From Eledone cirrhosa (taxonomy: Eukaryota), in NCBI GenBank assembly GCA_964016885.1, contig OZ024743.1, positions 364,808,001 to 364,872,000 on the forward strand: 64,000 nt of DNA, given 5' to 3'. Positions 182 through 58,818 of this stretch are shown here, piece after piece. The notes under the pieces were generated by a model. That model was not told where the DNA came from and searched no databases. It saw nothing but the letters and a program-made list of their open reading frames with translations. Each line of letters opens with the position of its first letter. Positions within the stretch are counted from its first letter, which is position 1. Both the position numbers and the translations under genes were made by a program.

Positions 182-647
182 TGGAAAGTTATATTTAAAA
201 TTGTTGGGTTACAACTAGTAAATATTTATAACTGATATAAAAGCACTCGACAAATATTTGGAGTATATTTACAATATTAAATAAATGGAAACTATATTTA
301 TAAAACCATATTTATTTCATTATATATATTTCGGGGATATCATATTAACAATATGCTATGCCTTCCTCAGACAAAATACAATATAAACAGTTTTATAGAT
401 AAATAGATTCGACATACCGTAACAACACCGACTTGCATTTGGAGAGGTTGAGCTGGCAGCTGACTGCCAGCTCAACCTCTCCAAATGCAAGTCGGTGTTG
501 TTACGGTATGTCGAATCTATTTATCTATAAAACTGTTTATATTGTATTTTGTCTGAGGAAGGCATAGCATATTGTTAATATGATATCCCCGAAATATATA
601 TAATGAAATAAATATGGTTTTATAAATATAGTTTCCATTTATTTAAT

Positions 648-653
<6 letters not shown>
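182..653. mobile_element. PLE-type terminal fragment with 190-bp fold-back palindrome, between (TA)n tracts
   Basis: 270-459 is the exact reverse complement of 464-653 (loop CTGA); contains an HHR fold in each arm; homologous to 13013-13200. Confidence 0.7.
545..610 (+). ncRNA. type I hammerhead ribozyme (mirror copy 313-378 on minus)
   Basis: TATTTTGT-CTGAGGA-[imperfect stem II]-GAAA-TATATA-TA-ATGAAATA; stem I pairs with two G.U; palindromic stem III as in PLE HHRs. Confidence 0.65.
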
Positions 654-1468
<815 letters not shown>

Positions 1469-2392: not shown

Positions 2393-2429
<37 letters not shown>

Positions 2430-2431
<2 letters not shown>

Positions 2432-2603
2432 CGAAGGAAATGTGGTAAGGAACCAGGTGGACCATAACGCACCAAAGTACTCAATACTTGAGGTAGTAGA
2501 GTGGGTAATAGGAACCAGTAAGACCCCGACAGCTGAGCTCAAGCCGTTTCGACGAATTAGCCGTCGAAACGGCTTGAGCTCAGCTGTCGGGGTCTTACTG
2601 GTT

Positions 2604-2608
<5 letters not shown>
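2430..2608 (-). mobile_element. non-autonomous hairpin element (PLE-type end), copy 1 of 3
   Basis: 47-bp arms 2508-2554/2562-2608 plus about 80-bp unique tail; (TA)n on both sides; near-identical to 43049-43243 and 49835-50052. Confidence 0.85.
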
Positions 2609-6489: not shown

Positions 6490-6525
<36 letters not shown>

Positions 6526-6531
6526 GGTTGG

Positions 6532-6571
<40 letters not shown>
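6365..6571. repeat. (GAT)n microsatellite
   Basis: direct inspection. Confidence 0.95.
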
Positions 6572-6572
<1 letters not shown>

Positions 6573-8140
6573 CCTTCCCCACCACCATCTTCCCCAACAC
6601 CATCTTCCCCATCACCATCTTACCCATCACCATCTTCCCCATCACCATCTTCCCCATCACCATCTTCTCCATCACCATCTTCTCCTTCACCACCTCTCCC
6701 ATCACCATCTTCCCCATCATCATCTTCCCCATCACCATCTTCTCCACCATCTTCTCCATCACCATCTTCCCCATCACCATCTTCCCCACCACCATCTTCC
6801 CCATCACCATCTTCCCCACCACCATCTTCCCCTTCACCATCTTCCCCATCACCATCTTCCCCACCACCATCTTCCCCTTCACCATCTTCCCCATCACCAT
6901 CTTCCCCACCACCATCTTCCCCATCACCATCTTCCCCACCACCATCTTCCCCATCACCATCTTCCCCACCACCATCTTCCCCATCACCATCTTCCCCATC
7001 ACCATCTTCCCCATCACCATCTTCCCCATCACCATCTTCTCCATCTTCCCCATCACCATCTTCCCCATCACCACCTTCCCCATCACCATCTTCCCCTTCA
7101 CCATCTTCCCCATCACCATCTTCTCCATCACCATCTTCCCCATCACCATCTTCCCTATCACCATCTTCCCCATCACCATCTTCCCCACCATCATCTTCCT
7201 CATCACCATCTTCCCCTTCACCATCTTCCCCATCACCATCTTCTCCATCACCATCTTCCCCATCACCATCTTCCCCATCACCATCTTCCCCATCACCATC
7301 TTCCCCATCACCATCTTCTCCATCTTCCCCATCACCATCTTCTCCATCACCATCTTCCCCATCACCATCTTCCCCATCACCATCTCCCCCATCACCATCT
7401 TCCCCACCATCATCTTCCCCATCACCATCTTCCCCTTCACCATCTTCCCCATCACCATCTTCTCCATCACCATCTTCCCCATCACCATCTTCCCCACCAC
7501 CATTTTCCCCACCACCATCTTCCCCATCACCATCTTCCCCACCACCATCTTCCCCATCACCATCTTCCCCATCACCATCTTCCCCATCACCATCTTCCCC
7601 ACCACCATTTTCCCCACCACCATCTTCCCCATCACCATCTTCCCCATCACCATCTTCCCCATCACCATCTCCCCCATCACCATCTTCTCCATCACCATCT
7701 TCCCCATCACCATCTTCCCCATCACCATCTTCCCCATCACCATCTTCCCCATCACCATCTTCTCCATCTTCCCCATCACCATCTTCTCCATCACCATCTT
7801 CCCCATCACCATCTTCCCCATCACCATCTCCCCCATCACCATCTTCCCCACCATCATCTTCCCCATCACCATCTTCCCCTTCACCATCTTCCCCATCACC
7901 ATCTTCTCCATCACCATCTTCCCCATCACCATCTTCCCTATCACCATCTTCCCCATCACCATCTTCCCCACCACCATCTTCCCCATCACCATCTTCCCCA
8001 TCACCATCTTCCCCATCACCATCTTCCCCACCACCATTTTCCCCACCACCATCTTCCCCATCACCATCTTCCCCATCACCATCTTCCCCATCACCATCTC
8101 CCCCATCACCATCTCCCCCATCACCATCTCCCCCATCACT
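6572..8140. repeat. 15-bp minisatellite (CCATCACCATCTTCC)n
   Basis: about 1.57 kb with SPSSP periodicity in translation; variant blocks are re-duplicated. Confidence 0.95.
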
Positions 8141-43048: not shown

Positions 43049-43053
<5 letters not shown>

Positions 43054-43241
43054 AACCAGTAGGACCCCGACAGCTGAGCTCAAGCCGTTTCGACGGGGTT
43101 AATTCTATTGAATTAGCCGTCGAAACGGCTTGAGCTCAGCTGTCGGGGTCCTACTGGTTCCTATTACCCACTCTACTACCTCAAGTATTGAGTACTTTGG
43201 TGCGTTATGGTCCACCTGGTTCCTTACCACATTTCCTTCGT

Positions 43242-43243
<2 letters not shown>
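43049..43243 (+). mobile_element. hairpin element copy 2
   Basis: same arms and tail as 2430-2608 in opposite orientation; different apex; (TA)n flanks. Confidence 0.85.
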
Positions 43244-43903: not shown

Positions 43904-44486
43904 TCGCTACTACCGGACATTGAAACAGGCGAAAATATGTAGCTTTTTCGTCCGTGTAAATGGGCTGATTAGCCTCATTTGCATACGAAGCTGTATAAGT
44001 TGGCTCAACTTAAAATAGAATTAGAATTTAGCTTCGACATAACTGTATACAGATATGTATGGGAATTTCGTATATCTAAAGAAATACGGTATGTTTATAA
44101 ATAAAACTGTGGCTTTCAGAAGGTTTTTTTTTATAAACATGCCGTATTTCTTTAGCTATATCCACATACATATTTGTATACAGCTATGTCGAAGCTAAAT
44201 TCTAATTTTACAAATATATAGTTTTAATGTTAATTCTTATTTTCATTGTGATATTTTAATGAGTGGTTTATGTTTTATATGCTTTATTTGTTCTAAATAT
44301 TATTTTGGGTGGATTCTATTTGCATTTTAATAAACTCCGACGACACCCGTGGAATAGTTAATTCTTTGGTTTTATGTATAAACTTTGCATGACCCTCATT
44401 GAATTGAGCTAAATAACATCCTGTAAAGGAGTATACTTACTCTCATTAATATTATAATCATGTTATAATATTAGTATGCATTTAGA

Positions 44487-49344: not shown

Positions 49345-49650
49345 ATACAAGTTAATATAAATTAATATATGATAAACACACAAGTGTTTGTATTGTAAAA
49401 GACGAAGTTAGCTAGAATGAAATAAACTAATTCAAATAAATATAGTTTGCCTGTCTCGATTTAAAATAATAAATCAATAAAAACAAACCCACGGTTATTG
49501 CCAATATGGGTTTGTTTTTATTGATTTATTATTTTAAATCGAGACAGGCAAACTATATTTATTTGAATTAGTTTATTTCATTCTAGCTAACTTCGTCTTT
49601 TACAATACAAACACTTGTGTGTTTATCATATATTAATTTATATTAACTTG

Positions 49651-49653
<3 letters not shown>
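49345..49653. repeat. 147-bp-arm perfect inverted repeat
   Basis: 49345-49491 is the reverse complement of 49507-49653; ends at (TA)n. Confidence 0.95.
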
Positions 49654-49834: not shown

Positions 49835-49838
<4 letters not shown>

Positions 49839-50051
49839 AACCAGTAAGACCCCGACAGCTGAGCTCAAGCCGTTTCGACGGCTAATTCTGGACTAAATGA
49901 AAATTTTCATTTAGTCCAGAATTAGCCGTCGAAACGGCTTGAGCTCAGCTGTCGGGGTCTTACTGGTTCCTATTACCCACTCTACTACCTCAAGTATTGA
50001 GTACTTTGGTGCGTTATGGTCCACCTGGTTCCTTACCACATTTCCTTCGTT

Positions 50052-50052
<1 letters not shown>
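49835..50052 (+). mobile_element. hairpin element copy 3
   Basis: arms extended to a spacerless apex GGACTAAATGAAAATTTTCATTTAGTCC. Confidence 0.85.
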
Positions 50053-58740: not shown

Positions 58741-58818
58741 ATAATAAAAGGACGATTTGTTATGTCTTCATTACGTTTATAAACGTAATGAAGACATAAC
58801 AAATCGTCCTTTTATTAT
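58741..58818. repeat. 78-bp spacerless perfect palindrome
   Basis: centre TACGTTTA|TAAACGTA at 58779/58780; followed by about 100 bp of tail to (TA)n. Confidence 0.95.

What the first reader, a model, noticed from the sequence alone, without database searches (positions are those of the whole stretch)
43049..43243. Hairpin element family folds back inside hammerhead stem II; arms appear to be made at each insertion
Seen: three copies (2430, 43049, 49835) share arms and tail but have three different apices (AATTAGC; GGTTAATTCTATTGAATTAG; an extended spacerless palindrome). The right arm reads as the 3' half of an HHR: stem II 3' TTAGCCGTC-GAAA-CGGCT-TGAGCTC-AGCTG-TC-GGGG, with paired stem III and a GUC site. 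The 5' half (CUGAUGA) is replaced by the inverse copy. Copy 2 has a private substitution (AGTAGGACC versus AGTAAGACC) in both arms. Inference: nascent cDNA self-primes at the stem II hairpin during insertion, giving MITE-like palindromes from a retroelement.
Basis: partly seen in the sequence, partly recalled or inferred. Interest (0 to 1): 0.7.

Follow-up and report, generated by a model that had tools for sequence, protein, structure and literature searches.

The report
Penelope stubs record two RNA ends
These short hairpins are cut-off ends of a Penelope-type jumping gene, likely made when two DNA copies of one RNA ran off its front end and were joined head to head; most stop at a likely promoter start inside the element's predicted self-cutting RNA, and about 180 stop at its predicted cut site, which would be rare evidence that this ribozyme cuts in a living animal.

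Summary
Real, and part of a family with 5,726 exact tail matches. The parent exists: a 3.54-kb Penelope-like element (PLE) with an intact 717-719-aa RT + GIY-YIG ORF bearing Hydra-clade motifs, whose 3' end folds as a type I hammerhead with a U3-A8 core, not CUGANGA. Each insertion has one end at T1 and one about 80 nt downstream (the tail), in (TA)n. Arms are remade per insertion (51 different junctions in 58), but not by stem II snap-back: that product occurs once genome-wide, and copy 2's 'private' base is a subfamily allele. Inner ends pile up at -53..-64, where an Inr-like A lies 29 nt after TATTTAAA inside loop II. A second class of about 180 minis ends at the predicted cut site; mixed pairs are rare. 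Best reading: two cDNAs run off one RNA's 5' end and are joined. The layout is published, and this scan noted the run-off idea before on other DNA, this genome included; the cut-site class is what I add. No RNA data.

The parts
43050..43096 (-). Copy 2 inverted (tail-less) arm: element positions -1 to -47, outer end at site T1 in (TA)n
43097..43109 (.). Copy 2 junction insert, 13 nt; its first 10 nt resemble a re-copied piece of the arm (one mismatch), as in templated end-joining inserts (inferred)
43110..43163 (+). Copy 2 forward arm: positions -54 to -1 = 3' half of the predicted type I hammerhead (stem II 3' strand, GAAA, stem III, GUC, stem I 3' strand)
43144..43145 (+). Predicted hammerhead cleavage site (C-20 | G-19); the genome's mini-hairpin class ends here
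43164..43243 (+). Copy 2 tail: first ~80 nt of the next unit's 5' UTR, from T1 to T2
2429..2607 (-). Copy 1: tail 2429-2508, forward arm 46 nt, inverted arm 54 nt, 1-nt overlap
49835..50052 (+). Copy 3: both arms reach about -70, spacerless at AAATTT, tail 49973-50052; member of a minor class of about 56 loci

Best explanation
The hairpins are short head-to-head stubs of a Penelope-like retrotransposon with Hydra-clade motifs, likely made when both ends of a cut in (TA)n prime reverse transcription on one RNA at two sites 80 nt apart, both copies likely run off the RNA's 5' end, and the two ends are likely joined face to face. Shown: parent element, two fixed outer ends (T1, T2), per-insertion junctions, sharp inner-end peaks at about -60 and -19. 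Inferred: -60 is a Pol II start (TATA-like box and Inr inside hammerhead loop II), so the normal transcript lacks the ribozyme's 5' half; -19 is the ribozyme's cut in read-through RNA; long copies come from uncut read-through (tandem) RNA; joining is by template jump or microhomology end-joining. The stubs would be dead ends: they lack the upstream promoter box and the ORF.
For: Parent: L033 and a 4.5-unit tandem with 3,542-3,543-bp units and open 717-719-aa ORFs. Outer ends: tail ends at +78..+84 in 87 of 92 sampled copies; 55 of 58 inverted arms run from T1 into TA-rich flank; both ends share TAT with the target. This fits the in vitro finding that a PLE protein extends both target strands and starts at two internal sites that bound the tail (PMC11167929, text parts 1-2 of 4). 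Inner ends: 49 of 92 forward arms start at -53..-64, 0 at -65..-150, 11 further up; mode -60; DNA-run contig depth falls about 20-fold past -60. The only TATA+Inr pair in the unit is TATTTAAA at -89 with the Inr A at -60 (consensus patterns recalled); 5 of 18 variants read TCAGTC there. Run-off signs: long A runs on inner ends (L014, L200, L216, L243); one extra C after -60 in 3 of 3 one-armed copies joined straight to (AT)n, like the cap-derived G of full-length L1 (PMC11702581, passages). Cut-site class: 183 mini-hairpins; of 49 listed loci 45 have no arm past -20, 27 have an arm ending at -19 followed by a non-parental base, 12 are blunt 19|19 (hand count); 19 of 20 fetched have T1 and the full tail. 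One template: at most 30 mixed -19/long junctions where independent templates would give over 1,000; 36 G/G against 12 discordant hairpins for a 1% allele, with 7 as background for a neighbouring T>C. Symmetry: inverted arm longer in 23, shorter in 25, equal in 10 of 58.
Against: No RNA evidence for either 5' end. The hammerhead fold is the minimum-energy fold of the 121-nt piece but z = -0.19, is not the minimum-energy fold with 200 nt of downstream sequence, shows no two-sided covariation in 18 close variants, and 4 of 18 variants have C3 opposite A8. TATTTAAA is kept in 13 of 18 variants only. The extra-C signal is modest: among 50 young arms that stop near -60 the next base is C 18, G 16, A 14, T 2, many explained by the partner arm, and the set is not random. 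The 12 blunt and 5 near-blunt minis could also arise from a CG microhomology. Concordance could reflect one source locus or RNA pool instead of one molecule; only 6 of 19 minis carry the window's tail allele. Copy 3's class (about 56 loci ending near -70) needs a third stop that I cannot assign.
Confidence: 0.72

Rival explanations
1. One reading: one nascent cDNA folds back at a hairpin in hammerhead stem II and copies itself, giving the inverted arm.
For: Arms are concordant for the minority allele (36 of 48 hairpins). Two fetched loci (L103, L191) are exact snap-back products at the small hairpin. Junctions -60/-56 and -60/-57 fit a 1-bp fold-back of an added C. Self-priming was proposed for PLE inverted junctions (PMC3846280, passages).
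Against: The apical stem II snap-back product occurs once in the genome. Only 14 of 58 hairpins have the geometry it needs; 23 of 58 have an inverted arm with sequence absent from the tailed arm. Zero-loop and 1-nt-loop palindromes (19|19, 19-A/T-19, 59|59) cannot be snap-back. It may still be a minor route for joining.
Confidence: 0.1
2. Two cDNAs are made as in the best explanation, but they stop because reverse transcriptase stalls on RNA structure (stem II, the G run of stem I), not because the RNA ends.
For: All three stops lie in or beside predicted helices; copy 3's class ends at the apical loop of stem II; no RNA 5'-end data.
Against: The -60 stop lies 11 nt beyond the 3' strand of lower stem II, in a weak hairpin; the -19 stop lies after the G run has been copied; both carry added bases typical of run-off (PMC2718515 passages); stalls would not pair 19 with 19 and 60 with 60 so strictly.
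Confidence: 0.12
3. Longer inverted insertions lost their centres after insertion (palindrome instability), leaving short hairpins.
For: Long inverted copies exist (L025/L026, L091, L100); 18 of 58 junctions have 1-6 nt overlaps; CCCCGGGG could come from a CG microhomology.
Against: The upper edge is sharp (0 of 92 at -65..-150); 20 of 58 junctions carry inserted bases, some poly(A); the family is young (18 private mismatches in 6,059 arm sites).
Confidence: 0.04
4. A DNA MITE with long terminal inverted repeats that amplifies as a unit.
For: Palindromic look, TA-flanked ends, thousands of copies.
Against: One end carries an 80-nt tail outside the inverted repeat; centres differ in 51 of 58 copies; sequence is continuous with a PLE ORF; none of 18 private mismatches is shared by both arms.
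Confidence: 0.01

Closest known systems
Hydra clade of C-terminal-endonuclease Penelope-like elements (Craig et al. 2021, PMC8557442; section 11, passages and supplement hits seen)
   Same: Single ORF with RT then GIY-YIG; RWR (paper: RWK), DKT, CxCX5C linker, no CCHH between GIY and YIG, CxxC and CxH either side of E and N; (TA)n targets; hammerhead near the 3' end; inverted 5'-truncated copy and one-sided tail.
   Different: Unit is 3.54 kb (paper: generally under 3 kb); hammerhead is U3-A8 with a 39-nt loop II and a 6-bp stem III; tail about 80 nt (paper: 30-40 nt); most copies are stubs under 230 bp.
Anole Poseidon element PAc in vitro (Frangieh et al. 2024, PMC11167929; text parts 1-2 of 4 seen)
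   Same: Both target strands extended, two internal start sites that bound the tail, AT-rich target, hammerhead upstream of the start sites.
   Different: PAc starts without homology to the target, here 3 nt (TAT) match at both sites; that paper found no RNA-seq reads ending at the ribozyme cut and did not address inverted arms; here genomic copies end at the predicted cut.
PLE hammerheads, including the U3-A8 variant of Schistosoma Cercyon elements (Cervera and de la Pena 2014, PMC4209133; text parts 1-2 of 4 seen)
   Same: Type I, U3-A8 core, G10.1-C11.1, long stem II with a bulge, palindromic stem III loop; pairs of motifs on opposite strands were noted there.
   Different: Full stem III and a large loop II that holds a TATA-like box and Inr.
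Adineta vaga Penelope pLTRs (Arkhipova et al. 2013, PMC3846280; passages seen) and D. virilis Penelope promoter (PMC2377424; passages seen)
   Same: Inverted pLTR, optional tail, putative TATA plus Inr in the pLTR.
   Different: Self-priming on an antisense template was proposed there; D. virilis has a TATA-less internal promoter; the junction counts here favour two sense-templated cDNAs.

Membership tests
EN+ Penelope-like element | Single ORF with RT core and GIY-YIG endonuclease | tested here: met
   717-719-aa ORF with FDIESYY, SMG, YRDD and VIY..YIG; 2,031 homologues, top hit with Pfam GIY-YIG aligned over that part. Pfam and PDB give no direct hit.
EN+ Penelope-like element | Tandem units / pLTR, inverted 5'-truncated copy, tail on one end | tested here: met
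   Tandem of 4.5 units with inverted arm ending at T1 and 3' end at T2; L033 has the tail on the inverted arm instead.
EN+ Penelope-like element | RT phylogeny with PLE clades | not tested
   No tree was built; no labelled reference proteins were held as sequences.
Hydra clade | DKT, RWK-type motif, CxCX5C linker, CCHH absent, CxxC and CxH around E and N | tested here: met
   SDKTGN, RLRWR, CNCPDRSIC, one Cys only between GIY and YIG, CNLC-SEE..LNK..CKH against the paper's list; K of RWK is R here.
Hydra clade | (TA)n insertion preference | tested here: met
   55 of 58 inverted arms and nearly all tails run into TA repeats.
Hydra clade | Canonical hammerhead; length generally under 3 kb | tested here: inconclusive
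   Hammerhead present but U3-A8; unit 3.54 kb. The paper gives both as tendencies, not rules.
Neptune / Nematis / Poseidon | CCHH zinc finger between GIY and YIG, DKG motif | tested here: not met
   No Cys pair between GIY and YIG; DKT.
Type I hammerhead ribozyme | Three helices around the core C3/U3-U-G-A-N-G8/A8-A, GAAA, NUH | tested here: met
   Fold; position 7 varies G/T between subfamilies, U4, G5, A6, A8, A9 do not; 92.9% of cells paired. 4 of 18 variants have C3 with A8.
Type I hammerhead ribozyme | Covariation support | tested here: inconclusive
   0 of 26 pairs change on both sides; sequences 93% alike. Rfam gives no hammerhead hit at the window's copies, which hold only the 3' half.
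Type I hammerhead ribozyme | Self-cleavage | not testable with these tools
   Indirect only: the -19 class.
DNA MITE | Terminal inverted repeats at both ends and uniform interior | tested here: not met
   Tail lies outside the inverted repeat; 51 distinct centres in 58.
Non-LTR retrozyme | Tandem non-coding monomers each with a whole type I hammerhead | tested here: not met
   Stubs are single and hold half a hammerhead; tandems carry the ORF (definition from 10.64898/2026.07.22.740005, part 1 of 5).

The most novel reading that the evidence does not exclude
The element hides its Pol II promoter inside loop II of its own hammerhead, so the normal transcript starts within the ribozyme and cannot cut itself while read-through RNA is cut 41 nt further down; thousands of genomic stubs are 'strong-stop' pairs copied from both RNA ends, giving a DNA record of in vivo cleavage by an animal PLE hammerhead and of two-ended priming on one RNA.
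Probability: 0.5. Interest if true: 0.7.

Novelty: new variant of a known kind. Interest (0 to 1): 0.55.

Why it matters
How PLEs form inverted arms, and whether their hammerheads cut in animals, are stated open questions (PMC8557442, PMC4209133, PMC11167929, parts seen). This young, very abundant family turns both into sharp tests: a capped 5' end at one base, a 5'-OH end at another, and a rule that both arms come from one RNA. It also warns that such palindromes will be annotated as MITEs or miRNA hairpins. The overall layout and the U3-A8 core are already in print. Searches for a prior report of genomic copies ending at the cut site, or of MITE-like PLE palindromes, found none (titles and abstract starts only, open-access library only).

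Tried and rejected
Rfam scan of the window: only low-score miRNA-type hairpin matches, no hammerhead. Pfam and PDB sequence searches of the ORF: no hit. Sequencing runs: no RNA holder listed; only DNA-type contigs could be laid, and the best holder may be the assembly's own sample. My first idea that discordant arms prove two templates was dropped: 9 discordant tailed arms against 7 background T>C changes at the next base. My first label 'Neptune' was dropped for Hydra. A 3' splice site at -59 was considered and rejected because arms include the AG and share no upstream exon. The 7,042 arms are not a clean count of -60 stops: an older subfamily has C at -61, and 5 of 40 fetched were long copies. 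A genome search with another window hairpin returned nothing, not even itself, so generality to other families is untested. The bacterial promoter scan was uninformative. Genome-wide counts of allele pairs across whole hairpins were not obtained as one search; they come from fetched loci. Rows dropped before the count of 58: long-armed L091 and L100, L109 (204-nt gap), L097 (indel mis-scored), and copies without a scored partner, among them the minis L067, L069, L122. The bioRxiv retrozyme preprint's supplements were not seen; they may list related motifs.

Full report
Numbering: -1 is the last A of GGTTCCTA (site T1, window 43163 in copy 2); +1 is the first base of the tail.

Observation. The three copies, their apices and the half-hammerhead reading are as described. 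A 29-nt tail pattern matches 5,726 times in the 3.0-Gb genome, the reversed control 0 times. The A>G difference in copy 2 is not private: 33 of the 40 scored hits are 100% identical to copy 2's arm and tail, and the allele is in 56 tailed and 49 tail-less arms.

Parent. Loci L025, L026 and L028 continue upstream without inversion. The sequence there folds as a type I hammerhead: stem I of 11 bp with a 6-nt bulge, core UUGAGAA, stem II of 8 bp with one bulge and a 39-nt loop, GAAA, stem III of 6 bp with a palindromic loop, GUC, predicted cut between -20 and -19 (pair probabilities 0.6-1.0 for most pairs). The 5' half has 2,151 exact matches. The core is the U3-A8 variant reported for Schistosoma PLEs (PMC4209133, parts 1-2). 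Position 7 varies between subfamilies and the G/A allele lies in the stem I bulge. Against: z = -0.19, no two-sided covariation, 4 of 18 variants with C3 opposite A8. Downstream of the tail lies an ORF. A tandem on contig C1 has four whole units of 3,542-3,543 bp with open 717-719-aa ORFs; equal-length units differ at 2 and 4 sites. The motifs match the Hydra clade list of PMC8557442 (section 11). There are 2,031 homologues at about 40% identity. No tree was built.

Anatomy of insertions. I fetched the first 92 of the 100 places listed. The tail ends at +78..+84 in 87 of 92. Of 58 short two-armed hairpins, 55 have the inverted arm running from T1 into TA-rich flank. Long copies also have one T1 and one T2 end, with the tail on either arm. 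T1 and T2 both end in TAT, matching the target. This agrees with the in vitro work on an anole PLE: both strands cut and extended, two internal start sites bounding the tail (PMC11167929).

Inner ends. 49 of 92 forward arms start at -53..-64, none at -65..-150, 11 beyond -150, the rest are shorter. Among 116 arms of the 58 hairpins the mode is -60 (19), then -59 (14) and -54 (13). Junctions: 20 blunt, 20 with inserted bases, 18 with 1-6 nt overlap; 51 are distinct. Contigs from a public run show depth from +81 to about -60 and a fall of about 20-fold beyond (possibly the same sample). At -60 lies the A of TTAGTCC, an Inr-like word, 29 nt after TATTTAAA; this is the only such pair in the unit, which has 2 TATA-like and 60 Inr-like words (consensus patterns recalled). 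Five of 18 variants read TCAGTC. Some inner ends carry A runs up to about 20 nt. Three of three one-armed copies joined directly to (AT)n have one extra C after -60; over 50 young arms the next base is C 18, G 16, A 14, T 2 (non-random set). An extra G marks capped full-length L1 ends (PMC11702581, passages) and non-templated bases mark run-off in R2 (PMC2718515, passages). I infer a transcription start at -60. TATA plus Inr in a pLTR was proposed for a rotifer Penelope (PMC3846280); D. virilis Penelope is TATA-less (PMC2377424).

A second class ends at the ribozyme cut. Three of the 92 (L067, L069, L122) had both arms ending near -19. A genome search that admits up to 14 nt between two anchors gave 183 loci. 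Of 49 distinct loci listed, by hand count: 45 have no arm past -20; 27 have an arm ending at -19 followed by a base not in the parent, mostly A; 12 are blunt 19|19; 5 are 18|19; none has both arms at 21-23, which the pattern admits. 19 of 20 fetched have T1 and the full tail; 6 of 19 carry the window's tail allele. This is what run-off from the 5'-OH product of self-cleavage would leave.

One RNA, two cDNAs. If arms drew on independent RNAs, about 170 pairs of 19/19 among at least 4,000 hairpins (an estimate and the 58-of-92 share, before older subfamilies) would imply over 1,000 mixed pairs. One search found 93 long/short junctions, of which 15 start exactly at -19, 6 at -19 or -20 and 9 are ambiguous: 30 at most. 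In the sample, 0 of 58 are mixed. For the 1% allele, 36 hairpins are G/G and 12 discordant (all 56 and 49 sites examined), and a neighbouring T>C occurs 7 times as background. So the arms share a template, or at least a source locus.

Not snap-back. The tail must be copied from RNA, so snap-back must start from the tailed arm and leave the inverted arm at least 3 nt shorter: true in 14 of 58; it is longer in 23, equal in 10. Zero-loop palindromes exist. The predicted product at the apical stem II hairpin occurs once in the genome, the one at the small hairpin in 2 of all fetched loci and 1 of the 58. Copy 3 belongs to a minor class of 55-56 loci with both arms ending near -70; this third stop is unexplained and may be a stall or a minor start.

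Mechanism. Shown: parent, two outer ends, per-insertion junctions, two sharp inner-end classes, arm concordance. Inferred: the endonuclease cuts (TA)n; each 3' end pairs over TAT at T1 or T2; both cDNAs run to the RNA's 5' end (-60 capped start or -19 cut); they are joined by template jump or microhomology end-joining with trimming; long copies come from uncut read-through RNA. A transcript starting at -60 has T1 and T2 only near its 5' end, which would explain why stubs outnumber long copies.

Novelty. The inverted-arm-plus-tail layout, the two start sites and the U3-A8 core are published. Earlier notes of this scan reach the run-off reading for other DNA, two of them in this genome (I held that reading before the look-up); a look-up by sequence returned nothing. 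The short texts shown do not mention a class ending at the cut site or a promoter inside loop II. Literature searches listed no such report; I saw titles and abstract starts only, apart from the papers cited above. Interest 0.55.

Noticed in passing
G000:C1 about 91,489,200-91,492,700 (L202/L203), inversion junction of the 4.5-unit tandem: About 64 head-to-tail copies of a 55-nt piece of the ORF (unit 1695-1752) fill the junction between the forward array and the 1.1-kb inverted arm; L099 has a smaller 4-fold repeat at its junction. Looks like repeated re-copying of one template stretch.
   Followed up: no
window 264-659: Another near-perfect hairpin (196-nt arms, 4-nt spacer) ending in (TA)n, with a hammerhead-like CTGAGGA..GAAA in each arm; likely a second PLE family. 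The genome search with it returned nothing.
   Followed up: partly
window 49345-49653, 58741-58818, about 44030-44210: Further AT-rich hairpins (138-, 39- and about 85-nt arms) unrelated in sequence to this family.
   Followed up: no
window about 45256, 54136 (plus); about 59670, 52190 (minus): Compact canonical hammerhead cores (CTGANGA, short stem II, GAAA), probably ends of other PLE families.
   Followed up: no
window about 6,500-8,000: Tandem array with a 15-bp period, about 100 copies.
   Followed up: no
L033, L025 versus L028, L046, L075, L121: Some G-allele long copies lack about 715 bp of the 1.2-kb 3' UTR; L033 also has one frameshift in the linker.
   Followed up: partly
L254 (G000:C1:146,437,650-146,438,050): Flanks of this mini-hairpin are inverted with respect to each other (ATG repeats left, CAT repeats right).
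   Followed up: no
many loci, e.g. L042, L049, L067, L086, L095, L111: Young copies often lie within 0.1-3 kb of older-subfamily copies, probably because both target the same TA-rich patches.
   Followed up: no
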